64,000 nt of DNA, taken from NCBI RefSeq assembly GCF_024298765.1, contig NZ_CP101210.1; one strand, given 5' to 3'. Positions within the stretch are counted from its first letter, which is position 1, and every line of letters starts with the position of its first letter. The notes below the pieces were generated by a model, which worked only from the letters and a program-made list of their open reading frames with translations, was not told the DNA's origin and made no database searches. The DNA comes from Escherichia coli (GTDB taxonomy: Bacteria > Pseudomonadota > Gammaproteobacteria > Enterobacterales > Enterobacteriaceae). Both the position numbers and the translations under genes were made by a program. This document shows, in pieces, positions 3,139 to 45,618 of this stretch.

Positions 3139-3513
3139 ACTCCCATTCTTACTTTGTAACAAGCCGGTGCTTTCCCCCCGGCTTGTTACCCTCTTGAAAT
3201 ATCCCACTAGTAATCATGCTTACTTAAGTCAAATTAACTACGCAATTAACCACACTTAGTTAAACAGTCATAAATCCCCTAATAAAAATGTATGAATATG
3301 AAAAAACATACGATATTCGCTGTCACCGAAAAATAATTACGATGGGCTATACTCTTCTGAAGAACAGTAGCGTAGATTGAAACTGTCCTAAGTCGCTTAT
3401 TTGTTTTCAGTATATCTTCATATTTCAGGAGAATATGGTGCAGTTAGTCGATCTCGCACATTGCGTTTCGTTTTGATTCCGTCTGCTTTCCCAGCCTTAT
3501 AAGGGTGTGAATT

Positions 3514-4896
3514 ATGGAGATGTATTTTAAAAGAATGAAAGATGAGTGGACCGGGCTTGTCGAACAAGCAGATCCGCTCATTCGTGCTAAAGCCGCGGAA
3601 ATTGCCGTTGCGCATGCCCATTATCTGAGTATTGAGTTTTACCGAATTGTCCGTATCGACCCGCATGCCGAAGAATTCTTGAGTAATGAACAAGTTGAGC
3701 GGCAGTTGAAAAGTGCGATGGAACGCTGGATTATTAACGTGCTTTCTGCCCAGGTTGACGATGTCGAAAGGCTAATACAAATCCAGCATACCGTTGCGGA
3801 AGTGCATGCCCGCATAGGAATTCCGGTAGAAATTGTCGAGATGGGGTTTCGGGTGCTGAAAAAAATCCTCTATCCAGTCATCTTCTCTTCGGATTATTCC
3901 GCCGCAGAAAAACTTCAGGTCTACCATTTCTCGATTAACAGTATTGATATCGCTATGGAAGTGATGACCCGCGCGTTTACCTTTAGTGACAATAGTGCCT
4001 CAAAGGAAGATGAAAACTATCGTATCTTCTCGTTACTGGAAAATGCCGAAGAAGAAAAAGAACGGCAAATAGCCTCATTACTTTCATGGGAAATAGATAT
4101 TATCTATAAAGTCCTGCTGGATTCTGATTTAGGCAGTAGTTTGCCTTTAAGCCAGGCTGATTTTGGCCTGTGGTTTAACCATAAAGGTCGACATTATTTT
4201 AGCGGCATAGCCGAAGTGGGCCATATCTCCCGTCTGATTCAGGATTTCGACGGTATTTTCAATCAAACCATGCGTAATACCAGGAATTTGAATAACAGAA
4301 GTTTGCGGGTGAAATTTTTATTACAGATAAGAAATACCGTATCGCAAATTATTACCTTGCTGCGTGAATTGTTTGAAGAAGTATCGCGCCACGAAGTCGG
4401 TATGGATGTCCTGACGAAATTACTTAACCGCCGTTTCCTGCCGACGATCTTCAAACGCGAAATTGCCCATGCCAACCGGACCGGTACACCGCTGTCAGTG
4501 CTGATTATTGACGTTGATAAATTCAAAGAGATCAACGATACGTGGGGCCATAACACTGGCGATGAAATTCTGCGTAAAGTCTCTCAGGCCTTTTATGACA
4601 ACGTCCGCAGTAGTGATTATGTTTTCCGCTACGGGGGCGATGAATTTATCATTGTTTTGACTGAAGCTTCGGAAAACGAAACGTTACGTACCGCAGAACG
4701 TATTCGCAGTCGGGTGGAGAAAACCAAACTGAAAGCCGCAAACGGCGAGGATATTGCCCTCTCACTTTCCATCGGTGCCGCCATGTTTAATGGTCATCCT
4801 GACTATGAGCGCCTCATTCAAATAGCCGATGAAGCTCTGTATATCGCCAAAAGACGAGGTAGAAACCGTGTTGAACTCTGGAAAGCCAGTCTTTAG
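3514..4896 (+). CDS. dosC: Globin-coupled diguanylate cyclase DosC
   Basis: 460-aa ORF; N-terminal globin-like sensor and C-terminal GGDEF domain (RYGGDEF motif); immediately upstream of dosP. Confidence 0.92.
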   Translation: MEMYFKRMKDEWTGLVEQADPLIRAKAAEIAVAHAHYLSIEFYRIVRIDPHAEEFLSNEQVERQLKSAMERWIINVLSAQVDDVERLIQIQHTVAEVHARIGIPVEIVEMGFRVLKKILYPVIFSSDYSAAEKLQVYHFSINSIDIAMEVMTRAFTFSDNSASKEDENYRIFSLLENAEEEKERQIASLLSWEIDIIYKVLLDSDLGSSLPLSQADFGLWFNHKGRHYFSGIAEVGHISRLIQDFDGIFNQTMRNTRNLNNRSLRVKFLLQIRNTVSQIITLLRELFEEVSRHEVGMDVLTKLLNRRFLPTIFKREIAHANRTGTPLSVLIIDVDKFKEINDTWGHNTGDEILRKVSQAFYDNVRSSDYVFRYGGDEFIIVLTEASENETLRTAERIRSRVEKTKLKAANGEDIALSLSIGAAMFNGHPDYERLIQIADEALYIAKRRGRNRVELWKASL

Positions 4897-4920
4897 ATGC
4901 GCCAGGATGCAGAGGTAATC

Positions 4921-7320
4921 ATGAAGCTAACCGATGCGGATAATGCCGCCGATGGCATTTTTTTCCCCGCCCTTGAGCAAAATATGATGGGCGCGGTGTT
5001 AATTAACGAAAATGATGAAGTGATGTTTTTCAACCCCGCCGCAGAGAAGCTCTGGGGGTACAAACGTGAAGAAGTCATTGGCAATAACATTGATATGCTG
5101 ATTCCGCGGGATTTGCGTCCTGCGCATCCTCAATACATTCGTCACAACCGTGAAGGTGGTAAAGCTCGCGTCGAGGGGATGAGTCGGGAGCTGCAGCTGG
5201 AGAAAAAAGACGGCAGTAAAATCTGGACCCGTTTTGCGCTATCGAAAGTGAGCGCCGAGGGGAAAGTTTATTACCTGGCGCTGGTACGGGATGCCAGCGT
5301 AGAAATGGCGCAAAAAGAACAGACCCGACAATTGATTATTGCCGTTGACCATCTCGACCGACCGGTGATTGTCCTCGATCCGGAACGCCATATTGTGCAG
5401 TGCAATCGCGCATTTACCGAAATGTTTGGTTACTGCATTAACGAAGCCAGCGGTATGCAGCCCGATACACTCCTGAACATTCCAGAATTCCCTGCTGATA
5501 ACCGTATTCGTTTACAGCAGTTGCTATGGAAAACCGCCCGCGATCAGGACGAATTTCTGCTGTTGACGCGCACCGGTGAAAAAATCTGGATTAAAGCCTC
5601 TATCAGCCCGGTTTATGACGTGCTCGCGCATCTGCAGAACCTGGTAATGACATTCTCGGATATCACCGAAGAAAGGCAAATCCGCCAGCTTGAAGGCAAT
5701 ATTCTCGCCGCCATGTGCAGCAGCCCCCCATTTCATGAAATGGGGGAAATCATTTGTCGTAACATCGAATCTGTTCTCAACGAATCGCATGTTTCGCTGT
5801 TCGCGCTGCGCAACGGGATGCCGATACACTGGGCGTCATCTTCGCACGGTGCAGAAGTTCAAAATGCGCAAAGCTGGTCAGCGACCATTCGTCAGCGCGA
5901 TGGCACGCCTGCGGGGATCCTGCAAATTAAAACCTCGTCAGGAGCAGAAACCAGCGCCTTTATCGAACGCGTGGCAGATATCAGCCAGCATATGGCCGCG
6001 CTGGCGCTGGAACAGGAAAAAAGCCGTCAGCATATTGAACAACTCATCCAATTTGATCCGATGACCGGTCTGCCAAATCGCAATAACCTGCACAATTACC
6101 TCGATGACCTGGTCGACAAAGCCGTCTCTCCGGTGGTGTATCTCATCGGTGTTGACCATATTCAGGATGTGATTGATAGCCTTGGCTATGCGTGGACCGA
6201 TCAGGCATTGCTGGAAGTGGTCAATCGCTTTCGTGAAAAACTCAAACCGGATCAGTATCTCTGTCGTATTGAAGGTGCGTCTTTTGTCCTCGTGAGCCTG
6301 GAAAACGATGTCAGTAACATTACCCAGATCGCCGATGAGCTACGGAATGTGGTCAGCAAGCCGATAATGATTGACGATAAACCATTCCCGCTCACCTTGA
6401 GCATTGGCATCAGCTACGACGAGGGTAAAAACCGCGATTACCTGCTCTCCACTGCTCACAATGCAATGGATTTTATTCGCAAAAATGGCGGTAACGGCTG
6501 GCAGTTCTTCAGCCCGGCGATGAACGAAATGGTAAAAGAGCGTTTGGTTTTAGGCGCAGCGCTAAAAGAAGCGATTAGTAATAACCAACTTAAACTGGTT
6601 TATCAGCCGCAAATCTTCGCAGAAACGGGTGAACTGTACGGCATCGAAGCCCTTGCTCGCTGGTACGATCCCCTGCATGGTCATGTGCCCCCTTCACGGT
6701 TTATTCCTCTCGCAGAAGAGATTGGTGAAATCGAAAATATTGGGCGCTGGGTCATCGCGGAAGCTTGCCGTCAGTTAGCAGAATGGCGTAGCCAGAATAT
6801 TCATATCCCGGCGTTATCCGTTAACTTGTCTGCGCTGCACTTTCGCAGTAATCAGCTGCCTAATCAGGTATCTGATGCAATGCACGCCTGGGGTATTGAC
6901 GGCCACCAGCTGACGGTGGAAATCACGGAAAGCATGATGATGGAACACGATACCGAAATCTTTAAGCGCATTCAGATCCTGCGCGATATGGGCATCGGTT
7001 TATCGGTAGATGATTTTGGTACAGGCTTTTCCGGATTATCCCGCTTAGTCAGTCTTCCGGTAACGGAAATCAAAATTGATAAAAGTTTTGTCGATCGTTG
7101 TCTGACCGAAAAACGCATCCTTGCCTTACTCGAAGCCATTACCAGCATTGGGCAAAGCCTCAATTTAACCGTCGTGGCGGAAGGCATCGAAACCAAAGAG
7201 CAATTTGAGATGCTACGCAAGATCCACTGTCGCGTTATTCAGGGATATTTCTTTTCCCGCCCCCTGCCCGCCGAAGAAATTCCAGGCTGGATGAGCAGCG
7301 TGTTACCGCTGAAAATCTGA
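4921..7320 (+). CDS. dosP: Heme-PAS c-di-GMP phosphodiesterase DosP (PAS-GGDEF-EAL)
   Basis: ORF track gives 4897..7320; start moved to the ATG at 4921 (RBS gaggtaa 6 nt upstream), giving the 799-aa product; degenerate GGDEF plus an EAL domain (EAL at EALAR); forms an operon with dosC. Confidence 0.9.
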   Translation: MKLTDADNAADGIFFPALEQNMMGAVLINENDEVMFFNPAAEKLWGYKREEVIGNNIDMLIPRDLRPAHPQYIRHNREGGKARVEGMSRELQLEKKDGSKIWTRFALSKVSAEGKVYYLALVRDASVEMAQKEQTRQLIIAVDHLDRPVIVLDPERHIVQCNRAFTEMFGYCINEASGMQPDTLLNIPEFPADNRIRLQQLLWKTARDQDEFLLLTRTGEKIWIKASISPVYDVLAHLQNLVMTFSDITEERQIRQLEGNILAAMCSSPPFHEMGEIICRNIESVLNESHVSLFALRNGMPIHWASSSHGAEVQNAQSWSATIRQRDGTPAGILQIKTSSGAETSAFIERVADISQHMAALALEQEKSRQHIEQLIQFDPMTGLPNRNNLHNYLDDLVDKAVSPVVYLIGVDHIQDVIDSLGYAWTDQALLEVVNRFREKLKPDQYLCRIEGASFVLVSLENDVSNITQIADELRNVVSKPIMIDDKPFPLTLSIGISYDEGKNRDYLLSTAHNAMDFIRKNGGNGWQFFSPAMNEMVKERLVLGAALKEAISNNQLKLVYQPQIFAETGELYGIEALARWYDPLHGHVPPSRFIPLAEEIGEIENIGRWVIAEACRQLAEWRSQNIHIPALSVNLSALHFRSNQLPNQVSDAMHAWGIDGHQLTVEITESMMMEHDTEIFKRIQILRDMGIGLSVDDFGTGFSGLSRLVSLPVTEIKIDKSFVDRCLTEKRILALLEAITSIGQSLNLTVVAEGIETKEQFEMLRKIHCRVIQGYFFSRPLPAEEIPGWMSSVLPLKI

Positions 7321-7333
7321 TAAATTCCTCTCG

Positions 7334-7352
7334 CCCGCACTCGCGGGTTTTT
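7334..7352 (+). terminator. Rho-independent terminator after dosP
   Basis: Hairpin cccgc-actc-gcggg followed by ttttt, 14 bp after the dosP stop. Confidence 0.75.
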
Positions 7353-7445
7353 ATTTAACGTGACACTGTCACTTAAATACTGTGATTTCCGCTACGTTTA
7401 GTTGGACAACGACAACGCATAGCCATGTCACAACAATCCCTTCTC

Positions 7446-7505
7446 AGCCTGATGTGATTGTGCTGACGCATCAGGCAATCACGCGCCTGACGCGTCATCC
7501 GGCAA
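7446..7505. repeat. REP-like palindromic element(s) in the dosP-osmC spacer
   Basis: Imperfect palindromes cctgatg...catcagg and gcctgacgcgtcatccggca resemble the REP consensus; located where the ddp operon sits in K-12. Confidence 0.5.
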
Positions 7506-7509
7506 CACT

Positions 7510-7941
7510 TTACGATTTCAACTGGTAATCAAGCGTAATTTCAGCTTTCAGTACCTGAGAAACCGGGCATCCTGCTTTTGCTTTCTGGATAATGCCGTCA
7601 AAAGTAGAGGCATCAATACCCGGCACCGCAACTTCGCTTTTCAGTGCGATTTTAGTAATCGCAAAACCGGCATCCACTTTATCCAGCGACACATCTGCGG
7701 TGGTATCAATCGATGTTGGCGTGAATCCCGCTTCCCCCAGCATTAATGAAAGCGCCATTGAGAAACATGCGGCATGCGCTGCGCCAATCAGTTCTTCAGG
7801 GTTGGTTCCTTTTTCGCCTTCAAAACGCGTGTTAAATCCATACGGCTGTTGGTTCAGCACGCCGCTCTCGGTGGATACAGTTCCCTTCCCGCGTTTGATA
7901 TCGCCTTCCCAGTGTGCCTGACCTTTCTTATGGATTGTCAT
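7510..7941 (-). CDS. osmC: Osmotically inducible peroxiredoxin OsmC
   Basis: 143-aa ORF; OsmC/Ohr family; translation recognised. Confidence 0.93.
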   Translation of the reverse strand: MTIHKKGQAHWEGDIKRGKGTVSTESGVLNQQPYGFNTRFEGEKGTNPEELIGAAHAACFSMALSLMLGEAGFTPTSIDTTADVSLDKVDAGFAITKIALKSEVAVPGIDASTFDGIIQKAKAGCPVSQVLKAEITLDYQLKS

Positions 7942-8285
7942 TGTTGCTCTCCTGTGGGCTTAAAAAGGAAATTATAGACTACGTGAGAAACAGCACGAGG
8001 ATAAGCAGGATATTCCGAATAAAATCCGGCGAAAACATTATCTCTGTACTTAAATTAAATTCCCACAATAGATAACAGGAAATATATGACTCAAAAGATA
8101 TTGTATCAATATTAATCGATTCACACCAATAACAATCCCTATCAATATCATAGTGTTAAAATATAAAACTCATCAACCAGGACTAATCTTAACAACGAAG
8201 CGGCAAATATTTGCCATGCTGAATGTGCTTTATAAATCTGCGATCCGTAGCAGACACCATAAATACACAGACACGGAGAATCACT

Positions 8286-8501
8286 ATGTTTACTTATTAT
8301 CAGGCAGAAAATTCAACAGCAGAACCCGCTCTGGTTAATGCCATTGAGCAAGGCCTTCGGGCAGAGCACGGTGTTGTCACTGAAGATGACATTCTCATGG
8401 AGCTGACCAAATGGGTGGAAGCTTCTGATAACGACATCCTCAGTGATATCTACCAGCAAACGATCAATTATGTGGTCAGTGGCCAGCACCCTACGCTTTA
8501 A
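8286..8501 (+). CDS. bdm: Biofilm-dependent modulation protein Bdm
   Basis: 71-aa product from the internal ATG at 8286 (MFTYYQAENSTAEP...); the ORF-track entry 8223..8501 is an upstream extension. Confidence 0.85.
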   Translation: MFTYYQAENSTAEPALVNAIEQGLRAEHGVVTEDDILMELTKWVEASDNDILSDIYQQTINYVVSGQHPTL

Positions 8502-8602
8502 GGTGCTATGCTTGATCGGCAACCTAATTTAGGGGTTTAGCACGTGTTTCTTCGCTACGGCGATGTTGTCCTTAAAACTAGCAACAGGATTGAGGAGTTA
8601 AA

Positions 8603-8740
8603 ATGAAATCGAACCGTCAGGCACGTCATATTCTTGGACTGGACCATAAAATTTCTAACCAGCGCAAAATAGTTACCGAAGGTGACAAATCCAGCGTGGT
8701 AAATAACCCAACCGGCAGAAAACGCCCCGCTGAAAAGTAA
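8603..8740 (+). CDS. sra: Stationary-phase ribosome-associated protein Sra (RpsV)
   Basis: 45-aa ORF ([22 protein letters not shown]...) with RBS ggag; below the ORF-track size cutoff; found by reading the bdm-maeA spacer. Confidence 0.85.
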
Positions 8741-8770
8741 TTCATAACCATCAGTCCTCAATGACGATTA

Positions 8771-8800
8771 AACACCATTGCCTGCGCAATGGTGTTTTTG
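8771..8800 (+). terminator. Rho-independent terminator after sra
   Basis: Hairpin aacaccattg-cctgcg-caatggtgtt followed by tttttgttttt. Confidence 0.7.
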
Positions 8801-8896
8801 TTTTTATCTGCTTTATACTTGGGGCCGACGCCCTGGCGGTAAAGCAAAGACGATAAAAGCACCCCAGGGATGGATATTCAAAAAAGAGTGAGTGAC

Positions 8897-10594
8897 ATGG
8901 AACCAAAAACAAAAAAACAGCGTTCGCTTTATATTCCTTACGCTGGCCCTGTACTGCTGGAATTTCCGTTGTTGAATAAAGGCAGCGCCTTCAGCATGGA
9001 AGAACGCCGTAACTTCAACCTGCTGGGGTTACTGCCGGAAGTGGTCGAAACCATCGAAGAACAAGCGGAACGAGCATGGATCCAGTATCAGGGATTCAAA
9101 ACCGAAATCGACAAACACATCTACCTGCGTAACATCCAGGACACTAACGAAACCCTCTTCTACCGTCTGGTAAACAATCATCTTGATGAGATGATGCCTG
9201 TTATTTATACCCCAACCGTCGGCGCAGCCTGTGAGCGTTTTTCTGAGATCTACCGCCGTTCACGCGGCGTGTTTATCTCTTACCAGAACCGCCACAATAT
9301 GGACGATATTCTGCAAAACGTGCCGAACCATAATATTAAAGTGATTGTGGTGACTGACGGTGAACGTATTCTGGGGCTTGGTGACCAGGGCATCGGCGGG
9401 ATGGGCATTCCGATCGGTAAACTGTCACTCTATACCGCCTGTGGCGGCATCAGCCCGGCGTATACCCTTCCGGTGGTGCTGGATGTCGGGACGAACAACC
9501 AACAGCTGCTTAATGATCCGCTGTATATGGGCTGGCGTAATCCGCGTATCACTGACGACGAATACTATGAATTCGTTGATGAATTTATCCAGGCTGTGAA
9601 ACAACGCTGGCCGGACGTACTGTTGCAGTTTGAAGACTTCGCACAAAAAAATGCGATGCCGTTACTTAACCGCTATCGCAATGAAATTTGTTCTTTTAAC
9701 GATGACATTCAGGGCACTGCGGCGGTAACAGTCGGCACACTGATCGCAGCCAGCCGCGCAGCAGGTGGTCAACTGAGCGAGAAAAAGATTGTCTTCCTCG
9801 GCGCAGGCTCTGCGGGGTGCGGCATTGCCGAAATGATCATCGCCCAGACTCAGCGTGAAGGATTAAGCGAGGAAGCGGCGCGGCAGAAAGTCTTTATGGT
9901 TGATCGCTTTGGCCTGCTGACCGACAAGATGCCGAACCTGCTGCCTTTCCAGACCAAACTGGTGCAGAAGCGCGAAAACCTCAGTGACTGGGATACCGAC
10001 AGCGATGTGCTGTCACTGCTGGATGTGGTGCGTAATGTAAAACCAGATATTCTGATTGGCGTCTCAGGACAGACCGGGCTGTTTACGGAAGAGATTATCC
10101 GTGAGATGCATAAACACTGTCCGCGTCCGATCGTGATGCCGCTGTCTAACCCGACTTCACGCGTGGAAGCCACACCGCAGGACATTATCGCCTGGACTGA
10201 AGGTAACGCGCTGGTCGCCACTGGCAGTCCGTTTAACCCAGTGGTATGGAAAGATAAAATCTACCCTATCGCCCAGTGTAACAACGCCTTTATTTTCCCG
10301 GGCATCGGGCTGGGCGTTATTGCTTCCGGCGCGTCACGTATCACCGATGAGATGCTGATGTCGGCAAGTGAAACGCTTGCTCAGTATTCGCCGCTGGTCC
10401 TGAACGGCGAAGGTCTGGTACTACCGGAACTGAAAGATATTCAGAAAGTCTCCCGCGCAATTGCCTTTGCGGTTGGCAAAATGGCGCAGCAGCAAGGCGT
10501 GGCGGTGAAAACGTCTGCCGAAGCTCTGCAACAGGCCATTGATGATAATTTCTGGCACGCCGAATACCGCGACTACCGCCGTACCTCCATCTAA
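8897..10594 (+). CDS. maeA: NAD-dependent malic enzyme
   Basis: 565-aa product from the ATG at 8897 ([18 protein letters not shown]...); malic enzyme family; the ORF-track start at 8870 is an N-terminal extension. Confidence 0.92.
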
Positions 10595-33430: not shown

Positions 33431-33982
33431 CTATCTTCTTAGCGATGTCTTTCTGGTATCACATTGGATCGGTGCAATTATTTTTCCTTTAATACCCATT
33501 ATGTTAAGAAATTCAGAAACAGCTGTAATCTCATTGGTTTTTTCATTCGTCTTGATCTTCCAAGGAATCTGACTGTGCATTATTGAGAACACACTAATAA
33601 CGTGAATCGCTCCCTTGCGACGACTCTTGTCATAAGAGTACCGGAGCGTTTTTCCATCAATTGCAATGACGTCTTTATCATCTGAAGAATGGCAGTCAAG
33701 CATCCAGTTAATAAAGCACTCATGAAATTTTGCAGGACTGATACAGGATACAACTCTGGCAATGGTATCGTGAACAGGAATACCATTATCAAAATCACCA
33801 TATTGCTTCAAAAAATCGAGATGTGTTTCCCCAAAATCCTCTATATCTTCCCAGCCTTCTGCACCCGAAATAACGGCACAAATAGTCAACAGTAGAATAT
33901 CCGATAATTTATGTTCCACTTTCCAGGCTTGTCTGTAATCGGGGATAATAGAAATATGTTCCATCAATTTTTTAAGTTCCAT
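33431..33982 (-). pseudogene. ydcC: Truncated H-repeat-associated (ISAs1-family transposase-like) gene, N-terminal fragment
   Basis: 183-aa ORF matching only the N-terminal half of the roughly 378-aa H-repeat protein; the remainder is missing where the DGC gene begins. Confidence 0.7.
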
Positions 33983-34222
33983 TTTGTTCTCCTTAATTAT
34001 GTAAGGAGTATTTGATCATGTATAAGCAATAAAAAACAGCTTTAGATAATGAGGAATATCTCAATTTTTAAACATAAAATGCGAATTATTTAGTACAAAA
34101 AAGCAGCGTTACGTGATCTTTCCATGGAAAAGAGAGTAATACACTGATTTTTAACGCAGATTGCCAGTGCTACCAACACTGACAATCTGCTCACCACAAG
34201 CAACTAACAGAGGTAGTTAATC

Positions 34223-34552
34223 ATGGCTGAACACGATATTACGCCAGAAGTCGCCATTTCCAAAACACAGCGCCGCTATAAAGTCGGCTATGTCAGAGCC
34301 CGCCACATAAACAGCAAAACCTACATGACCACGTACTACTCACGACACCCCAGCCTGAACCTTAAGGGCGACTGGCTGAAAGAGGCCGGATTTGATACCG
34401 GACGGGGTGTCACGGTGAAGATTTCGGAGGGGTGCCTGACCATCATCGCTGACAGTGACGAGGTGCAGGAACTGCGGGAGGAACTTTATCAGGTTAAACA
34501 GGTGGTTAAGGGGATGCGGAACGGGATGTTTAGTGTGCTGAACGAGAATTAA
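34223..34552 (+). CDS. SymE-family type I toxin-like protein (AbrB/SpoVT-fold)
   Basis: 109-aa ORF with RBS agagg; core LKGDWLKEAGFDTGRGVTVKISEGCLTIIA closely parallels E. coli SymE as I recall it ([30 protein letters not shown]). Confidence 0.65.
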   Translation: MAEHDITPEVAISKTQRRYKVGYVRARHINSKTYMTTYYSRHPSLNLKGDWLKEAGFDTGRGVTVKISEGCLTIIADSDEVQELREELYQVKQVVKGMRNGMFSVLNEN

Positions 34553-34602
34553 ATAATAAAAAAGCCGGGGAGATTTAAAATCTTCCCGGCTTTCTTTATC
34601 AT

Positions 34603-34905
34603 CTAAAAAGGTAATAATCCTCTAATAGGAGAAAATTTTGTAATATCAATACCTTGTAATTTAAAGTAATTAAAAGCATCTTCTATATTGGAAAACGCAC
34701 TAATTTCTTCAGTTGCATAATCTTCGAACACTTCCATTTTATTTTCTGGTATTTTGAAAAAATAGGTATTGTATTTTTCATCCTGTTTTTTAATGGCATA
34801 TTGGAAAAAATAACTTTCACCATTTATTTCCTTTATCTCATCAAAACCTCTAACCTTACCATTCTCTATAGCAACAATTAATTTTTCAATAGACAAATCA
34901 ACCAT
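34603..34905 (-). CDS. Putative Rhs toxin immunity protein
   Basis: 100-aa acidic, AT-rich ORF; start overlaps the toxin-tip stop by 8 nt; strong RBS (gagga). Confidence 0.6.
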   Translation of the reverse strand: MVDLSIEKLIVAIENGKVRGFDEIKEINGESYFFQYAIKKQDEKYNTYFFKIPENKMEVFEDYATEEISAFSNIEDAFNYFKLQGIDITKFSPIRGLLPF

Positions 34906-35312
34906 CTATATCTATCCTCACCATTGTCCCATCAGAACGTTTAATATTTATATGAGGCAAAGAACCATGCCCTGTGCCTTTATGGTCATCATGACCATAT
35001 ACACGACCAGTATTAGAATCAATAGGGTAACCTTTCCTATAACGGACAGTACCATCTCTTTTCTTAAATTGTTCCATCTTATGTTTTTTTCTAATACCGG
35101 CGGCATCCTGCGAACCGATCCCTCTTACTTTTTGAGCATCAGGAAAGGCCTCCATCAATAAATCATGGGCTTCCTGTTTTGATTTAACTGTGACAACGGT
35201 TCCTTGAGGCCCCTCTCGCAAAGATTTCGCGTTTTTGGAACATGCAGTCAGTCCCAGCGGATCGATCCAAGAGAGCGGATTCGGCGCGTATTGGTAGAGG
35301 TTTATTCCCCCC
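34898..35312 (-). CDS. Rhs C-terminal segment (core end INLYQYAPNPLSWIDPLGL plus variable toxin tip), out of frame with the Rhs core ORF
   Basis: Reading frame B on the minus strand gives GGINLYQYAPNPLSWIDPLGL followed by about 117 aa of His-rich variable tip (YGHDDHKGTGHGSLPH); it is joined to the core only if the G7 run at 35307..35313 is read as G6. Confidence 0.65.
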
Positions 35313-40081: not shown

Positions 40082-42076
40082 TTATTTTTTAGTCATGAAG
40101 GCGACATCTATCGCCAATTGAAGGGCTGTTTTTTCCGATGTTCCTGGCGGAAGTATATCTGCCGCCCTGTTATTCATATTTAAATCAAGCTGACCTGATT
40201 GTGTATTTATCTTTCCATTTTCTGTTGCAGTAATATTAAAATTCTTACAGGTTATATTAAATATTCCGTCACTGGTCATTTGCAGGATAGTGTTCCCACA
40301 ACTAAGAATTATGGAATCTCCCGCAGCAAGGCGTAAATTCTGTACGGCCTGAATCGTTTTATTTTGTCCGGCAAGGGAGGTATCATCCATCTGAACTGTA
40401 AGAGAACGTTCCTCACCAATTATCGCTGTTTCTGTTTTATCAATGACTTTAAGGCGATTATTGCCCACCCAGTGGCTTTCATTATTATTTACTTCAATGC
40501 GTTGATCTTTCTCGGCATGCAACCAGATTTCTTCTCCGCCAGTTTTATCCTCAAAACGCAAGGCGTTAGCATTGGTCGGGCCGCCGCCGATAGTGTGGCT
40601 GTAAAACCCGCTTTGCGTCGCTGCGCCCGGTAGTCCCCACGGTGGCATGGTGTCCTGATTGTAGGTACGCCCAACGATTATCGGTAAATCCGGATCACCG
40701 TTTTTGAAATCCACCAGTACTTCCTGACCAATGCGCGGGATCTGAATGCCACCGAATCCTTTACCCGCCCACGGATAACTGACACGGACCCAGCAGGAAC
40801 TATTTTCGTCATTCTTACCGTAACGATCCCAGCCAAACTGAACTTTCACCCGGCCATATTTATCTGTCCAGATTTCCTGCCCTGCCGGGCCGGTGACGAT
40901 GGCGCTCTGCGGGCCTTTAGTGTGGGGTTTGCTCAGGGTTCGTTGTGGGCGGTAAACTTCGCTGGTGGGATGCAGTTCAAAGCTGGTTGAGTAAGAGAAA
41001 TGCTGCTCCTGGCCGCTGTGTTGCGCATTGTCCTGTATAAATAGCGTGGTCTGTACCAGCAGATATTCCCGGTTCACTTCGGCTGTCGGATAGTTTTCCA
41101 GGGTGAAGGTAAAACCTGTCATCAGGGTACGAATATTGCCGCTGCCCTGTACCCGACTACCTGGGCTACGCTGTTCTTCCATGCGAATGCGTGTCAGCAT
41201 TTCACCTTCACTCTTTGTGAAGTAATCTCCCGGCCATTCGTAGTGCTCATATTCAGCAAGGCCGGTTTCACGCGGATTAGCCACGGTGCTCTTCAGCAGT
41301 GAACGCGGCTTCATAAAGTCGAAATCATTCAGCACCCACTGTCCGCTGCGCAGACTTTCATTTGCTGTGATGGTATGGATAAACTCCTTGTCCAGTTTCA
41401 GCCCTTTCTGGTAATAACACACCAGCGGCGAATCTGCGCATGCCTTGTGGACATTAATGGCATCAGCCAGCACTAACGTGTGACTGTTCTCGCTGTGCTC
41501 AAACCACCAGTAGATACCCCACTCCTGCATCAGGCGCTGAACAAAATCGAAATCTGTTTCACCGTACTGCACCTGCCAGGCGCGAGTCGGATAATTTTCC
41601 ACCAGTCGTTTTTCCACTGGCCAGGGGTACTCATCCAGTACCTCATCCAGGATCTCCACCACGTTTTTATTCTGAAACGCTTTGTAGTCACTAGTGTGGG
41701 TCAGTATTTTTAACCACGGTTCGAGCCGCAGTTCATACACCACCGAACGTCCTTGATGACCAGCCACGCGTGCCGCCGTCACCAGCCCGCTGATATAACG
41801 TTTTCCGCCGCCATCCAATTCGATATTGACGCACAGATCTTTGCCCACCATCGGTTTGAGCTGCAGGTTGGCTGCGGGGGAAACATAGCCCAGGTTCAGG
41901 ATGTCAGGAGTTTTTAATTTAATAGAATAAGTAAATAGTTCCCCTACTGTTTCTGTACCCCCTAAGCTTGCAAACAGTAACATTCCATCAGGAACTGCGC
42001 TGCCGCTCAAAGTCACGTTATGTGTACCCGATCCAGTTAGTGCGCCGGATGGATAATCTGTAGCTGCAAAACTCAT
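40082..42076 (-). CDS. vgrG: Type VI secretion spike protein VgrG
   Basis: 664-aa ORF; gp27/gp5-like architecture; directly precedes the Eag-Rhs genes. Confidence 0.85.
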
Positions 42077-42297
42077 AATTAATCCTTTTAACTAGAAATG
42101 GATAAGTGCTAATAAGAAATCTTACAGAGAATAAAATATGCAATATATTCGTAGCTGGCATAAAACATCTCAATACTTATGCGTGCTACTGAAGATACTA
42201 TCAACCATATATGCCTTGAAGAATGCACCGTCATGTTAACCTGGTGGAAACATTCACCTAAAGTACATTAATAAAACTAATAAAATTATTTAATTTG

Positions 42298-42654
42298 TTA
42301 TTTGATATGATTATCATCAAGTCTTAAAATACGTTCTCCGGTTCTAATTATGCTAAAACCATAGTATTCTTTTTTACTTCCGGAAGAGAGCATATATTTC
42401 CCTATATACATAACATCTGAAGATAGCTCACTTATATCAATACATACGGGTTCGAACTGACCTGTCACTCTTTTCAACTTTATTGCATTGCCATATTTAC
42501 CTTCATATAAAACATAATTTGAAATAATATTCCCATCGTCTGGTTTTGAACAAATCTGTCCGTCTTGCAAATATACACTACCGGGTAACAATGGGCGAAC
42601 ATAATCACCAACAGTGCATCCCGACAAAAAGAAAAACAAAAAGAATCTCTTCAT
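42298..42654 (-). CDS. Small lipoprotein of unknown function (candidate immunity protein)
   Basis: 118-aa ORF; signal peptide with lipobox FLSGC; AT-rich; start overlaps the stop of the upstream HExxH gene (ATGA). Confidence 0.6.
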   Translation of the reverse strand: MKRFFLFFFLSGCTVGDYVRPLLPGSVYLQDGQICSKPDDGNIISNYVLYEGKYGNAIKLKRVTGQFEPVCIDISELSSDVMYIGKYMLSSGSKKEYYGFSIIRTGERILRLDDNHIK

Positions 42655-43220
42655 ATGACACCCGCAGGAAATAAATTAAGCACCTTTTTGTATTTTTCCG
42701 ATAGAGTGTTCACTGATTCAGTTGTATCACCTACATAGTTAACATTTGCCAAATCAGCCACCAGTCCATAGTTAATTAATAGCCAATAATCAACAACTAT
42801 AGATGCTTGTTGTTCCATGGAATAAGAAGAAATTGACTGTAAATTAAGATCGTAATGATAATTTGCCGCCCAAGAAAATAAACCACGCAACTTAACTGCA
42901 TACCCTTTCTGATATTGCCAAACATGCATCATTTCATGAATAAACAAGTGAGAAGCACCTGCTACTGTTTCACGATCACCAGGCATTGCTTGCGATGAAT
43001 AATCTGAACTATAAACAGCATCAGGATAATACATTTCCCCGTTTGGGGTCATCGCTGTTCTTTCCCCTTGACCAGGCAAATATTTTTCATTGTGGATCCA
43101 TACCTTGCTATAATCAATTGTATTCTCAAAAATCGATCTGGCCAATGTTAATTCACCAGATGTCATTCTCCTTAATGACATATCCTTTCCCCTGGAAATA
43201 ATATCTTTCAGATAAAACAC
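42651..43220 (-). CDS. Cysteine-free HExxH zincin-like protein (candidate T6SS cargo effector)
   Basis: 189-aa ORF (alternative start at Met14, position 43181); single HEMMH motif within ASHLFIHEMMHVWQYQ; no signal peptide; AT-rich; translationally coupled to the lipoprotein gene. Confidence 0.55.
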   Translation of the reverse strand: MFYLKDIISRGKDMSLRRMTSGELTLARSIFENTIDYSKVWIHNEKYLPGQGERTAMTPNGEMYYPDAVYSSDYSSQAMPGDRETVAGASHLFIHEMMHVWQYQKGYAVKLRGLFSWAANYHYDLNLQSISSYSMEQQASIVVDYWLLINYGLVADLANVNYVGDTTESVNTLSEKYKKVLNLFPAGVI

Positions 43221-44118
43221 AAACGCCCTTTGATGTTCAATATTCCCACTTTATACAGTATTGATGACATCATCTTCATAGAAAATAAAATCAAAGCAAG
43301 TTATCAACGTTTCCCGTTATGATTTCTTAACATTAATTCTCAGCATTTTTATTAATCTATCTTCAATATCAATAACCGATGCAAATGATTACGCAGCTAA
43401 CATAATTCTCATCAATTGATTAATATCTGTAAACGCTACCGCCCCACCCTGATATCTTAATCTGCACATAGCAATCTTAACGTTATGCCCCATACATTAG
43501 TAATGTAAATTAAGAATTCGGAATATATCAAATTCACTTCATAAATTAATATCGGGAATGATATACACATTAATTATATTGAAGTAATGTTTTAAGAGTT
43601 GTAATGACCATGGAACAGGACTAATTCCAGAAACTCCTGTTGGGCAATAGCGCGTTTATCATCCTACATGCCTCTTACATTTTTTAGCCTTTTCTTTAAC
43701 GTCAGCAATTGGCTCATTTAATCAGCAATGGTATTGGTATTTGGCGTATTACCCCTGAAACCCGTCATGTGCTAGCACCTCACTATTCAATGAGCCAACC
43801 ACGCCAGTGTCCACTGCAACCACTGGCGTTCAGAGCGACGAACGAGTGGCGCAAGAGTAGGACTGCCGTCGGGCATCATCAAACCAATAGTGGTTGTTTC
43901 CGTCAAAATTTCATCAGGTTGCTATTTGGTTGCCGGCCGCCTTTATCCCCACATATTTATAGCGGGATTATTTTGCATCGTTACACGATAAAAGGTAGGA
44001 TTCTGCGCCGACAGTTATACCCATAAAGAATAATGGTGAATCTTGTCATCGCCAGGATGAATAAACATTGTTCATGGCAACTTATATGACTTTTTCATTA
44101 AAGCAATCAGGGAGAGCA

Positions 44119-45618
44119 ATGAGTAAACACGACACCGACACTTCAGATCAACACGCCGCGAAACGCCGCTGGCTTAATGCCCACGAAGAGGGGTATCACA
44201 AAGCGATGGGCAATCGCCAGGTGCAGATGATCGCCATTGGCGGCGCGATTGGTACGGGTTTGTTTTTAGGCGCGGGAGCCCGACTGCAAATGGCGGGGCC
44301 AGCACTGGCACTGGTCTATTTAATCTGCGGCTTGTTTTCGTTTTTTATTCTGCGTGCATTGGGTGAGCTGGTGCTACACCGCCCTTCCAGTGGCAGTTTT
44401 GTCTCTTATGCCCGTGAGTTTTTGGGTGAGAAAGCCGCTTATGTTGCAGGCTGGATGTACTTCATCAACTGGGCGATGACGGGGATTGTCGATATTACCG
44501 CCGTTGCACTGTATATGCATTACTGGGGCGCATTTGGTGGTGTACCGCAGTGGGTCTTTGCGCTCGCTGCGCTGACCATCGTTGGCACCATGAATATGAT
44601 TGGTGTGAAATGGTTTGCCGAGATGGAGTTCTGGTTTGCGCTTATTAAAGTGCTCGCCATTGTGACCTTTTTGGTCGTGGGTACAGTGTTCCTCGGTAGT
44701 GGTCAGCCGCTGGATGGCAACACCACTGGCTTTCATTTAATTACCGATAACGGCGGCTTCTTCCCCCACGGTTTGCTACCTGCGCTGGTGTTGATTCAGG
44801 GCGTAGTGTTTGCTTTTGCCTCCATTGAAATGGTGGGTACAGCTGCCGGAGAATGTAAAGATCCGCAGACCATGGTGCCTAAAGCGATTAACAGTGTGAT
44901 TTGGCGTATTGGCCTGTTTTACGTCGGCTCCGTGGTGTTGCTGGTTATGTTATTGCCGTGGAGCGCGTATCAGGCGGGGCAAAGTCCGTTCGTGACGTTT
45001 TTCTCTAAACTGGGTGTGCCGTACATCGGCAGCATTATGAACATTGTGGTGCTGACCGCTGCCCTCTCCAGCCTGAACTCAGGTCTGTACTGCACCGGAC
45101 GTATTCTGCGCTCGATGGCGATGGGCGGTTCCGCACCGAGTTTTATGGCGAAAATGAGTCGTCAGCATGTGCCGTATGCCGGGATTCTGGCGACACTGGT
45201 TGTGTATGTCGTCGGCGTATTCCTCAACTATCTGGTGCCGTCGCGCGTATTTGAGATTGTGTTGAACTTCGCGTCGCTGGGAATCATCGCTTCATGGGCG
45301 TTTATCATCGTGTGCCAGATGCGCCTGCGTAAAGCGATTAAAGAAGGCAAAGCAGCGGATGTCAGTTTTAAACTGCCTGGCGCGCCCTTCACTTCCTGGC
45401 TGACATTACTGTTTTTGCTGAGCGTCCTTGTGCTGATGGCGTTCGATTACCCGAACGGGACTTATACTATCGCGGCGCTGCCGATTATCGGTATTCTGCT
45501 GGTTATAGGCTGGTTTGGTGTGCGCAAACGCGTTGCTGAAATTCACAGCACTGCGCCAGTCGTCGAGGAAGATGAAGAAAAACAGGAAATTGTGTTTAAG
45601 CCTGAAACGGCGAGCTAA
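44119..45618 (+). CDS. ansP: L-asparagine permease (APC family)
   Basis: 499-aa product from the ATG at 44119 (MSKHDTDTSDQHAAKRRWLNAHEEGYHK...). Confidence 0.92.
   Translation: MSKHDTDTSDQHAAKRRWLNAHEEGYHKAMGNRQVQMIAIGGAIGTGLFLGAGARLQMAGPALALVYLICGLFSFFILRALGELVLHRPSSGSFVSYAREFLGEKAAYVAGWMYFINWAMTGIVDITAVALYMHYWGAFGGVPQWVFALAALTIVGTMNMIGVKWFAEMEFWFALIKVLAIVTFLVVGTVFLGSGQPLDGNTTGFHLITDNGGFFPHGLLPALVLIQGVVFAFASIEMVGTAAGECKDPQTMVPKAINSVIWRIGLFYVGSVVLLVMLLPWSAYQAGQSPFVTFFSKLGVPYIGSIMNIVVLTAALSSLNSGLYCTGRILRSMAMGGSAPSFMAKMSRQHVPYAGILATLVVYVVGVFLNYLVPSRVFEIVLNFASLGIIASWAFIIVCQMRLRKAIKEGKAADVSFKLPGAPFTSWLTLLFLLSVLVLMAFDYPNGTYTIAALPIIGILLVIGWFGVRKRVAEIHSTAPVVEEDEEKQEIVFKPETAS

What the first reader, a model, noticed from the sequence alone, without database searches (positions are those of the whole stretch)
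43221..44118. About 0.9 kb of very AT-rich non-coding DNA between the vgrG-linked module and ansP
This unusually long spacer has no convincing ORF; the 105-aa ORF at 43709..44026 has no RBS and an implausible composition. It replaces the genes K-12 has next to ansP (yncG and yncH, from memory). The extreme AT-richness of 43221..43700 is what an H-NS-silenced promoter region for the HExxH-lipoprotein-vgrG-rhs operon would look like, and the GC-normal part (43700..44060) may be a decayed gene remnant or the ansP leader.
Basis: partly seen in the sequence, partly recalled or inferred. Interest (0 to 1): 0.35.

Follow-up and report, generated by a model that had tools for sequence, protein, structure and literature searches.

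The report
Patchwork spacer beside ansP in E. coli
The 0.9-kb gap upstream of ansP is ordinary non-coding DNA made of three pieces: the short ansP promoter, the dead remains of the yncG gene, and the AT-rich control region of a type VI secretion toxin island, which holds one unusually conserved 57-bp motif of unknown function.

Summary
The window is E. coli and is 100% identical to strain 104. The HExxH gene starts at ATG 43181, so the spacer is 43182-44118. It has no credible gene, and 43221-43700 is 31.9% G+C, within the lowest 0.7% of the window.

It is not a blank replacement of yncG/yncH. It is colinear with the K-12 ansP-yncG-yncH-rhsE interval and has three parts:
- **ansP promoter and leader (43926-44118).** About 155 bp is present in 5405 of 5426 genomes. 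By transfer of K-12 data, the transcription start sites fall near 44079 and 44088.
- **Decayed yncG glutathione-S-transferase relic (43673-43925, minus strand).** It carries stop codons and two large deletions. yncH is absent.
- **AT-rich upstream region of the HExxH-lipoprotein-vgrG-rhs operon (43182-43600).** It includes a 190-bp element (43388-43577) also found upstream of vgrG1 next to cusS, of vgrG2/rhsE, and of a PAAR-vgrG module.

Inside the 190-bp element, a 57-bp core (43430-43486) is far better conserved than its flanks. The core is also present in Superficieibacter.

The homologous K-12 spacer binds RNA polymerase and H-NS in vitro, so the H-NS-silenced promoter reading is plausible by homology. 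It was not shown for this allele.

The 105-aa ORF is spurious, and no RNA family or structure was found. The result is mostly ordinary; the conserved core is a modest lead.

The parts
43182..43387 (-). Allele-specific part of the upstream region of the HExxH-lipoprotein-vgrG-rhs operon. It is expected to hold the promoter and 5' UTR. The best conserved sigma-70-like candidate is TTGATA (43372-43367), 16 nt, AAAAAT (43350-43345).
   Evidence: Present only in the 229 of 5426 genomes that carry the whole spacer. G+C is 30%. Promoter-like sites number 9 against 4.8 +/- 2.0 in shuffles. The candidate hexamers are kept in L006 and L009. No minus-strand terminator or promoter-like site lies between the lipoprotein gene and vgrG. 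The promoter assignment is inference, not a mapped start site.
43388..43577 (-). Element of about 190 bp shared by the upstream edges of several orphan T6SS cargo islands.
   Evidence: It is 70-75% identical to DNA upstream of vgrG1 next to cusS (L004, L005), upstream of rhsE' in K-12 (L003), and upstream of intact vgrG2 in FRIK1989 (L012). The orientation relative to the island genes is always the same.
43430..43486 (-). Conserved 57-bp core: AACGTTAAGATTGCTATGTGCAGATTAAGATATCAGGGTGGGGCGGTAGCGTTTA. It is probably a DNA-level cis element. Its function is unknown.
   Evidence: Window versus K-12: 86% identity in the core against 46% in the rest of the element, binomial P=5e-10. Window versus Superficieibacter: 69% against 35%, P=1e-8. 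A match to the core is found in 5265 of 5426 E. coli genomes, at 1-3 places each, although the weakest hits (35 bp, E about 0.5) are marginal. It is also present in E. whittamii, Escherichia sp. E1V33 and Superficieibacter electus, and upstream of a PAAR-vgrG module in SCU-387. There is no RNA structure signal and no Rfam hit.
43578..43672 (.). Unassigned 95-bp linker at the position where K-12 has about 600 bp that include yncH.
   Evidence: No similarity to K-12 L003 4669-5272. YncH tblastn gives only a chance 6-residue match.
43673..43925 (-). Decayed relic of yncG, a glutathione S-transferase family gene. The first ~57 codons and ~60 internal codons are missing, and three stop codons are in frame.
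   Evidence: tblastn with K-12 YncG matches residues 59-101 at 53% identity, E=5e-10. A second block matches residues ~173-200. blastn is colinear with K-12 and FRIK1989 yncG at 66-70%. The 39-aa ORF at 43787-43906 matches a 39-aa protein (87% identity) that NCBI records name 'glutathione S-transferase'. The same relic is in L002, L006, L008 and L009.
43926..44118 (+). ansP promoter region and short leader. The transcription start sites are inferred to lie near 44079 and 44088.
   Evidence: 43964-44118 matches in 5405 of 5426 genomes. Identity to K-12 is 100% over 44071-44170 and 86% over 43971-44070. The K-12 sigma-S ChIP-seq peak at 1524000-1524199, with TSSs at 1524035/1524044, is assigned to ansP (PMC4447067). 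Mapping used the ansP coordinates from NC_000913.3. The 1,976-bp offset between the two genome versions is taken from memory.
43709..44026 (+). Spurious 105-aa ORF, antisense to the yncG relic.
   Evidence: It has a TTG start and no ribosome-binding site. It is broken in L008 and L009, with no third-position bias in substitutions, and has no Pfam match.
42651..43181 (-). Context: the HExxH gene (176 aa), the first gene served by the AT-rich region.
   Evidence: RefSeq CDS WP_052263728.1. No Pfam family matches.
44119..45618 (+). Context: ansP, the L-asparagine permease gene.
   Evidence: RefSeq CDS WP_001300590.1, the same protein accession as in K-12 BW25113.

Best explanation
The interval is a composite divergent intergenic region at the edge of a known hypervariable Rhs/T6SS cargo site, 'Rhs locus 6' between yncG and pptA.

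- **ansP promoter (right ~100-190 bp).** This is the core-genome ansP promoter, which sigma-S RNA polymerase binds in K-12. It drives a leader of only about 31-40 nt.
- **yncG relic (middle ~250 bp).** This is a dead, drifting yncG gene with no function of its own. yncH has been lost.
- **Island control region (left ~400 bp, 30% G+C).** This belongs to the horizontally acquired island and carries the promoter and upstream control region of the HExxH-lipoprotein-vgrG-eagR-rhs operon on the minus strand.

By homology with the K-12 yncH-rhsE spacer, the left part is most likely occupied and silenced by H-NS under laboratory conditions. The promoter probably lies downstream of the conserved 57-bp core.

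The core is most likely a binding site for a protein that controls these cargo operons, either an activator or counter-silencer, or a nucleation or boundary site. The anatomy is shown by the analyses here. H-NS silencing, the promoter position and the role of the core are inferred.
For: **Anatomy and population distribution**
- The full spacer is in 229 genomes.
- 43447-43963 is in 781 genomes.
- The last ~155 bp is in 5405 of 5426 genomes.

**Colinearity with K-12 and FRIK1989**
- The order is element, then yncG 3' block, then yncG middle block, then ansP upstream.

**yncG relic**
- tblastn gives E=5e-10, a second block also matches, and in-frame stops are present.
- NCBI names the fragment a GST.

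**ansP promoter**
- K-12 has a sigma-S ChIP peak and TSSs 31 and 40 nt upstream of the ATG.
- The sequence there is 100% identical to the window.

**Island control region**
- G+C is about 30%.
- Promoter-like sites number 9 against 4.8 expected.
- The same element sits upstream of vgrG1, vgrG2, rhsE' and a PAAR-vgrG module.
- The K-12 homologous spacer is listed as binding RpoD holoenzyme, is marked HNS, and has the predicted promoter TTGACT-17-TATTAC (PMC3946193).
- I located that predicted promoter 85 bp downstream of the core.
- In EHEC the full-length rhsF start site is inactive and the T6SS is H-NS-repressed (PMC7618764).

**Core**
- It is conserved far above its flanks and is near-universal in E. 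coli.
Against: - No binding or expression data exist for this allele.
- The sequence downstream of the core, including the K-12 predicted promoter, is not conserved in the window. The promoter here is therefore only guessed.
- The H-NS high-affinity motif is not enriched beyond composition: 3 hits with at most 2 mismatches against 1.6 in shuffles, and 104 of 500 shuffles reach the observed count.
- AA/TT helical phasing is below the shuffle mean and A-tracts are not enriched.
- The promoter-like excess is only about 2 sd.
- The K-12 promoter is a best-match prediction inside a SELEX peak, not a mapped TSS.
- I could not match the core to any regulator motif.
- The coordinate frame of the ansP TSSs rests on a version offset recalled from memory.
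Confidence: 0.7

Rival explanations
1. The conserved core is not a transcription signal. It is a recombination or insertion-sequence-related boundary: the fixed upstream edge at which cargo modules are exchanged, or a preferred landing site for ISAs1-family (H-repeat) elements.
For: - Homology between alleles breaks 10-113 bp downstream of the core in every comparison.
- In about 550 genomes the ISEc1 end (CAGGGAAAGATCACG...) is joined inside the core at its own CAGGG.
- In SCU-387 an ISAs1-type end remnant lies 20 bp after the core in the same orientation.
- The window has an ISAs1 end remnant at the far end of the island, 34112-34126.
Against: - No inverted or direct second copy of the core occurs anywhere in the 64-kb window.
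- No recombinase gene is adjacent.
- The core shares only CAGGG with the IS inverted repeat.
- A passive boundary does not explain why the core is conserved far above the DNA on both of its sides, including in Superficieibacter.
- The element is absent from the phage collection, and its hits in the plasmid collection are almost all multi-megabase E. coli records.
Confidence: 0.15
2. The core encodes a small protein or leader peptide: 34 aa in the window (43493-43389, minus strand) and 25 aa in K-12, with a shared ...C-R-x-x-Y-Q-G-G-A-V-A... motif.
For: An ORF spans the core in every allele. The two substitutions inside the 22-mer in the O157 copy are synonymous in that frame.
Against: - Start codon, length and C-terminus differ in every lineage.
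- E. whittamii lacks the internal ATG.
- No Shine-Dalgarno sequence is present.
- In Superficieibacter an 8-nt indel separates two conserved blocks, so both cannot be conserved through one reading frame.
- There is no Pfam match.
- Nothing is annotated there in MG1655.
Confidence: 0.06
3. The core, or the AT-rich region around it, is a structured RNA: a small RNA or a regulatory 5' UTR acting after transcription on the vgrG operon.
For: An EHEC study found no VgrG1 or RhsF protein after swapping the vgrG1 promoter, and its authors suggested post-transcriptional control (PMC13141884).
Against: - No Rfam match reaches significance. The best is a eukaryotic snoRNA model at E=0.16.
- The minimum-free-energy z-score is +0.5.
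- The consensus fold is -5.4 kcal/mol with no compensatory pair.
- No terminator-like site is found.
- In K-12 the predicted promoter lies downstream of the core.
Confidence: 0.06
4. The GC-normal right half (43700-44060) is a long ansP leader, or it encodes the 105-aa protein.
For: It lies directly upstream of ansP. One 105-aa ORF is open in the window and in close relatives.
Against: - K-12 TSSs lie 31 and 40 nt from the ATG.
- The region is homologous to yncG on the opposite strand.
- It is absent from about 85% of E. coli genomes.
- The ORF is broken in two sister species and has no ribosome-binding site.
Confidence: 0.03

Closest known systems
E. coli K-12 yncH-rhsE intergenic spacer, listed as a 'constitutive' RpoD promoter with an H-NS site (Shimada et al. 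2014, PMC3946193)
   Same: It is the orthologous position, between the ansP/yncG side and the Rhs locus. It shares the 145-190-bp element and the 57-bp core at 73-77% overall identity and in the same orientation.
   Different: In K-12 the element is followed by the predicted TTGACT-17-TATTAC promoter and a truncated rhsE, and in other strains by vgrG2. In the window the sequence after the core is unrelated and leads into an HExxH/lipoprotein pair. K-12 also keeps intact yncG and yncH.
H-NS-silenced promoters of horizontally acquired T6SS and rhs loci, such as the EHEC T6SS and the vgrG1-rhsF island (PMC7618764, PMC13141884)
   Same: AT-rich foreign DNA lies upstream of a vgrG-rhs operon. The vgrG1 island carries the same upstream element. 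The operon is reported to be silent in vitro.
   Different: No H-NS or expression data exist for this allele. No enrichment of the Lang et al. motif and no A-tract phasing was found here.
yncG (b1454), a glutathione S-transferase family gene
   Same: Sequence homology in two blocks, the same strand, and the same position next to ansP.
   Different: It is not a gene here. It has stop codons, about 57 N-terminal codons are missing and about 60 internal codons are missing. Nucleotide identity to K-12 yncG is only 66-70%, far below normal allelic divergence in E. coli.
Rhs locus 6 (yncG to pptA) and locus 4 (nfrB to cusS) of Jackson et al. 2009 (PMC2935791)
   Same: The island next to this spacer occupies locus 6. 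The shared element also marks the upstream edge of locus 4.
   Different: The passages of that paper retrieved by my term search catalogue rhs genes and their C-terminal displacement. They do not mention an upstream non-coding element. I did not read the whole paper.
'Promoter islands' in foreign DNA (Panyukov and Ozoline 2013, PMC3661553)
   Same: AT-rich, H-NS-associated foreign DNA with several overlapping promoter-like sites.
   Different: The excess of promoter-like sites here is modest (9 against 4.8). The listed K-12 island in this neighbourhood is ydcD/yncI, not this spacer.

Membership tests
yncG / glutathione S-transferase gene | Significant protein-level similarity to YncG | tested here: met
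   tblastn matches residues 59-101 at 53% identity, E=5e-10. A second block matches residues 173-200.
yncG / glutathione S-transferase gene | Conserved position and strand next to ansP | tested here: met
   Colinear with K-12 and FRIK1989.
yncG / glutathione S-transferase gene | Intact reading frame of about 205 codons | tested here: not met
   Three in-frame stops, and the N-terminal ~57 and internal ~60 codons are missing. It is a pseudogene relic, not a member gene.
H-NS-bound silenced region | AT-rich DNA well below the genome average | tested here: met
   G+C is 30-32% against 50%, in the lowest 0.66% of windows.
H-NS-bound silenced region | High-affinity nucleation motif TCGATAAATT (PMC2094087) | tested here: inconclusive
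   The best match is 8 of 10 in the window, at 43531 on the minus strand. By eye the K-12 and O157 copies read TTGATAAATT, 9 of 10, in the sequences printed. The count is not above composition-matched shuffles.
H-NS-bound silenced region | Intrinsic curvature (phased A-tracts) | tested here: not met
   AA/TT power at 9.5-11.5 bp is below the shuffle mean, and A/T tracts are not enriched. This is a crude proxy only.
H-NS-bound silenced region | Direct H-NS occupancy and derepression in an hns mutant | not testable with these tools
   Only the K-12 homologue has in-vitro SELEX evidence.
Sigma-70 promoter of the HExxH-vgrG-rhs operon | -35/-10 hexamers with correct spacing on the minus strand | tested here: inconclusive
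   Four minus-strand consensus matches of 9 of 12 lie within the spacer. The one at 43372-43345 is kept in L006 and L009.
Sigma-70 promoter of the HExxH-vgrG-rhs operon | Mapped transcription start site | not testable with these tools
   No data for this allele.
ansP promoter (core genome) | Sequence conserved across E. coli immediately upstream of ansP, with a mapped TSS in K-12 | tested here: met
   Present in 5405 of 5426 genomes. Identity to K-12 is 100% over 44071-44170. K-12 TSSs lie at -31 and -40.
Any Rfam RNA family | Covariance-model score at or above the gathering threshold | tested here: not met
   The only hit is snoR27 at 28.8 bits against a threshold of 41, E=0.16.
Mobile-element end (IS or transposon inverted repeat, att site) | A second copy, inverted or direct, at the other end of the island, or an adjacent recombinase | tested here: not met
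   The core has a single copy in the 64-kb window, even allowing 3 mismatches. No tRNA is present.

The most novel reading that the evidence does not exclude
The 57-bp core (43430-43486) may be an undescribed, dedicated cis-regulatory operator. It is shared by otherwise unrelated orphan T6SS cargo islands at two chromosomal sites in Escherichia: HExxH-vgrG-rhs, vgrG1-rhsF, vgrG2-rhsE and PAAR-vgrG-DUF2169. It also lies next to small accessory genes in Superficieibacter. An unknown regulator could act through it to switch these H-NS-silenced toxin modules on together. That would give a concrete handle on why orphan vgrG/rhs islands stay silent in the laboratory.
Probability: 0.3. Interest if true: 0.45.

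Novelty: new member of a known kind. Interest (0 to 1): 0.22.

Why it matters
Mostly this is annotation housekeeping. It explains an oddly long gap as an ansP promoter, a yncG fossil and a foreign control region. It corrects the start of the HExxH gene, and it shows that the 105-aa ORF should not be called.

The population data also give a clean history of a hypervariable T6SS cargo site:
- An old, diverged allele is shared with E. whittamii and another Escherichia species (Escherichia sp. E1V33).
- In about 550 genomes the whole island was removed by an ISEc1-adjacent deletion that ends inside the spacer.

The one item of wider interest is the conserved core. Orphan vgrG/rhs islands of E. coli are reported to be silent in vitro, and their regulation is not understood. 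A short, near-universal motif at their upstream edge is an obvious target for reporter and pull-down experiments.

Tried and rejected
- **Rfam scan of 42000-45000 at E<=1:** only a sub-threshold eukaryotic snoRNA model.
- **RNA folding of the core region, alone and as an 8-sequence alignment:** z=+0.5 and no covariation.
- **tRNA, tandem-repeat and inverted-repeat searches:** nothing beyond short chance pairs.
- **Small ORF over the core:** rejected on start, length and indel grounds.
- **YncH relic:** only a chance FLIYIT hexapeptide.
- **HExxH/lipoprotein cassette as a simple insertion between the shared element and a K-12-type vgrG promoter:** rejected. The 221 bp upstream of this vgrG has no similarity to the vgrG1 or rhsE upstream regions.
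- **H-NS motif enrichment and A-tract phasing:** both negative or not above composition.
- **Mobile-element origin:** the phage collection has no match, and the plasmid-collection hits are almost all multi-megabase E. coli records. The one IMG/VR hit is ordinary E. coli chromosome.
- **Closest intact relative of the yncG relic:** the word-indexed protein search returned only the 39-aa fragment itself.
- **By-eye comparison of the core with sigma-54, CRP, Fur, IHF, RcsAB and ERIC consensus sequences recalled from memory:** no convincing match. This was not a formal test.
- **A dRNA-seq paper on K-12 start sites:** not held in the library.
Full report
**Identity of the window and the observation**

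The spacer is 100% identical to Escherichia coli strain 104, a chicken isolate from China (NZ_CP029164). RefSeq annotates, in order:
- on the minus strand: RHS protein, DcrB-related protein, VgrG, a 118-aa hypothetical protein and a 176-aa protein.
- then an unannotated gap;
- then ansP, yncE and pqqU.

ansP begins at window 44119. The ATG has a GGGGAAAGGA ribosome-binding site. In Escherichia sp. E1V33 only the 176-aa form is open. The gap is therefore 43182-44118, 937 bp.

G+C is 31.9% over 43221-43700, against 50.2% for the window. Only 0.66% of 480-bp windows are as low. The right-hand part is closer to normal.

**No gene or known RNA**
- ORFs of at least 30 aa in the gap are short or implausible.
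- The 105-aa ORF (43709-44026) has a TTG start and no Shine-Dalgarno sequence.
  - It carries stops in E. whittamii and a frameshift in Escherichia sp. E1V33.
  - It shows no third-position excess of substitutions (7/3/3) and no Pfam match.
- Rfam gives nothing.
- There is no tRNA, tandem repeat or terminator-like site.

**Population anatomy**

Megablast against 5,426 complete E. coli genomes splits the spacer into nested pieces:
- the whole 898 bp is in 229 genomes;
- positions 227-898 of the query (window 43447-44118) are in a further set;
- only the last ~155 bp (43964-44118) is in 5,405 genomes.

A second search shows that 43447-43963 is present in 781 genomes. The spacer is therefore not core sequence, apart from its ansP-proximal end.

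**Colinearity with K-12**

Sensitive blastn against the K-12 locus gives four colinear matches. The same four are found in FRIK1989.

| Window | K-12 locus (L003) | What it is |
|---|---|---|
| 43430-43574 | 4523-4668 | spacer between yncH and rhsE' |
| 43673-43769 | 5283-5377 | 3' end of yncG |
| 43795-43925 | 5590-5720 | middle of yncG |
| 43919-44130 | 5955-6168 | ansP upstream region and start |

The interval is the diverged orthologue of K-12 ansP-yncG-yncH-(spacer)-rhsE. It is not a replacement of it.

**The yncG relic**
- tblastn with K-12 YncG finds residues 59-101 at 53% identity (E=5e-10) on the minus strand.
- The same frame continues into a match to the C-terminal ~28 residues and is interrupted by stops.
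- About 57 N-terminal codons and about 60 internal codons are missing.
- The same two-block relic occurs in class-2 E. coli (L002), FHI_NMBU_03 (L006), E. whittamii (L008) and Escherichia sp. E1V33 (L009). The decay is therefore old, or the allele has moved between species.
- A 39-aa ORF inside the relic matches a protein (87% identity) that NCBI records name 'glutathione S-transferase'.
- No trace of yncH was found.

**The ansP end**
- Identity to K-12 is 92-100% per 100 bp from 44071 onwards: 100% over 44071-44170, and mostly 95-100% through ansP and yncE.
- It drops to 86% in 43971-44070 and then disappears.
- The ansP protein accession is the same as in K-12.
- Peano et al. list a sigma-S RNA polymerase ChIP-seq peak at 1524000-1524199, with TSSs at 1524035/1524044, for ansP (PMC4447067).
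- ansP is complement(1524481..1525980) in NC_000913.3.
- Subtracting the 1,976-bp difference between genome versions gives 1522505..1524004. That offset is from my memory.
- The TSSs then lie 31 and 40 nt upstream of the ATG, at window 44088 and 44079.
- The ansP promoter and leader therefore occupy only the last ~100-190 bp. The 'long ansP leader' idea is not supported.

**The AT-rich left part and its shared element**

Window 43388-43577 is 70-75% identical to DNA in the same orientation at three other positions:
- upstream of vgrG1 next to cusS, in O157:H7 and other strains (L004, L005);
- upstream of rhsE' in K-12;
- upstream of an intact vgrG2-RHS pair in FRIK1989, where the order is ansP-yncG-yncH-spacer-vgrG.

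The K-12-type spacer is present in 3,558 genomes, often with a second copy at the cusS site. These two sites are Rhs loci 6 and 4 of Jackson et al. (PMC2935791). They correspond to the vgrG2 and vgrG1 islands of EHEC (PMC7216683).

Within the element, alignments show a 57-bp core at 43430-43486. On the minus strand it reads AACGTTAAGATTGCTATGTGCAGATTAAGATATCAGGGTGGGGCGGTAGCGTTTA. Its conservation is far above that of the flanks:

| Comparison | Core identity | Rest of element | Binomial P |
|---|---|---|---|
| Window vs K-12 | 86% | 46% | 5e-10 |
| Window vs Superficieibacter | 69% | 35% | 1e-8 |

The core boundaries were chosen after seeing the alignment, so these P values are generous. The contrast is nevertheless large.

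A 20-mer from the core was scanned over 100,044 species representatives. It occurs only in E. whittamii, Escherichia sp. E1V33 and Superficieibacter electus. In Superficieibacter it precedes small hypothetical and lipoprotein-like genes rather than vgrG.

Searching the 66 bp around the core finds a match in 5,265 of 5,426 E. coli genomes, at 1-3 places each. The weakest matches (35 bp, E about 0.5) are marginal. One of these weak hits led to a fourth cargo type at the ansP site in strain SCU-387: yncG (frameshifted), the core, then PAAR-vgrG-DUF2169.

**What the core is not**
- **Not a structured RNA.** The fold z-score is +0.5, the consensus energy is -5.4 kcal/mol, and there are no compensatory pairs.
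- **Not a convincing small ORF.** Start codon, length and tail differ in each lineage. There is no ribosome-binding site. An 8-nt indel separates conserved blocks in Superficieibacter.
- **Not a repeated mobile-element end.** It has a single copy in the 64-kb window even with 3 mismatches. It is absent from the phage collection, and its hits in the plasmid collection are almost all multi-megabase E. coli records.

**Evidence on function**
- Shimada et al. list the K-12 yncH to rhsE spacer among spacers that bind RpoD holoenzyme in genomic SELEX. They mark it as containing an H-NS site and predict the promoter TTGACT-17-TATTAC (PMC3946193).
- I located that promoter at L003 4438-4410, 85 bp downstream of the core. 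In the K-12-type allele the core is therefore an upstream element, at roughly -95 to -150.
- In EHEC the full-length rhsF (vgrG1 island) start site is reported inactive, and the T6SS is reported H-NS-repressed (PMC7618764).
- Swapping the vgrG1 promoter did not yield VgrG1 or RhsF protein (PMC13141884).
- For the window allele itself I have only sequence:
  - G+C is 30%.
  - There are nine promoter-like sites against 4.8 +/- 2.0 expected.
  - There is a candidate TTGATA-16-AAAAAT promoter at 43372-43345, kept in two relatives.
  - No terminator or promoter-like site lies on the minus strand between the lipoprotein gene and vgrG. This fits one transcript from the spacer.
- The Lang et al. H-NS motif (PMC2094087) is not enriched beyond composition.
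- A simple curvature proxy is negative.
- H-NS silencing is therefore a reasonable inference from homology and composition. It is not a result obtained here.

**History of the alleles**
- In about 550 genomes (781 minus 229), homology to the window stops at 43447. There it abuts an ISEc1/H-repeat element that lies next to yddH (L002).
- Comparing the two ends of that IS gives inverted repeats that begin CAGGG(C/A)AAGAT(T/C)ACG. The junction therefore falls on the core's own CAGGG (43447-43451).
- The window carries a remnant of such an IS end at 34112-34126, at the far end of the island. It faces the same way.
- The class-2 structure is thus what a single IS-adjacent deletion of the ~9.3-kb island would leave.
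- SCU-387 has another ISAs1-type end remnant 20 bp after the core.
- These junctions motivate the rival reading that the core marks a recombination boundary. The lack of any partner copy, and the conservation of the core above both of its flanks, argue against that as the whole story.

**Verdict**

Four points need correcting or adding:
1. The decayed remnant is yncG itself, so the spacer is orthologous to the K-12 interval and does not replace it.
2. The ansP leader is short.
3. H-NS silencing is supported only by homology to K-12 and EHEC data.
4. The AT-rich region is not featureless. It contains a conserved 57-bp core shared by several T6SS cargo islands.

Overall this is an ordinary composite intergenic region. 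It carries one modest lead that can be tested by experiment.

Noticed in passing
window 43447-43451; L002 7862-8005: In about 550 complete E. coli genomes an ISEc1 (H-repeat, ydcC) element abuts the spacer exactly at the CAGGG inside the conserved core, and the whole vgrG-rhs island is missing. The structure looks like one IS-adjacent deletion of about 9.3 kb that then spread.
   Followed up: partly
window 34112-34126 (minus strand), with the partial ISAs1 transposase at about 33441-33991: A remnant of an ISAs1-family end (CATGGAAAGATCACG) lies at the far end of the island, next to a symE-like toxin gene. It has the same orientation as the ISEc1 in the island-less genomes.
   Followed up: partly
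L013 (E. coli SCU-387) 4197-10035: This is a fourth allele of the same site. yncG is frameshifted, the core is followed 20 bp later by an ISAs1-type end remnant, and then comes a PAAR - Vgr - DUF2169 - PAAR-like - DUF4279 cargo module.
   Followed up: partly
window 42651-43220: The HExxH gene most likely starts at ATG 43181 (176 aa, good ribosome-binding site), not at GTG 43220. PGAP names it 'type IV secretion protein Rhs'. Neither it nor the overlapping 118-aa lipoprotein gene (42298-42654) matches any Pfam family.
   Followed up: partly
window 43971-44170: Identity to K-12 drops from 100% (44071-44170) to 86% (43971-44070), although the AnsP protein accession is identical to that of K-12. 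This suggests that a recombination boundary or an old polymorphism begins inside the ansP promoter region.
   Followed up: partly
L007 (Superficieibacter electus) 2226-3915: In this species the conserved core precedes three small hypothetical genes of 106, 134 and 196 aa. One has a lipoprotein-like signal sequence and none has a Pfam match. No vgrG lies within the 3.8 kb downstream.
   Followed up: no
window 34421-35140 and 41901-42760: These are two further patches with G+C at or below 34%. The first lies at the distal side of the island. The second spans the gap between the lipoprotein gene and vgrG, together with the lipoprotein gene itself.
   Followed up: no
L010 (IMGVR_UViG_2700989274_000006): The part of this IMG/VR 'viral' contig that was fetched is 97% identical to the ordinary E. 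coli chromosomal yncG-yncH-vgrG2 spacer. Several PLSDB 'plasmid' hits are multi-megabase E. coli records and so are probably chromosomes.
   Followed up: partly
L003 4600-4625 and L004 about 5060-5085 (block B of the shared element); window 43520-43545: The palindrome GAATTTGATAAATTC contains TTGATAAATT, a 9 of 10 match to the H-NS high-affinity motif. It is conserved in the K-12-type and vgrG1-type copies. In the window it is weakened to GAATTTGATATATTC.
   Followed up: partly
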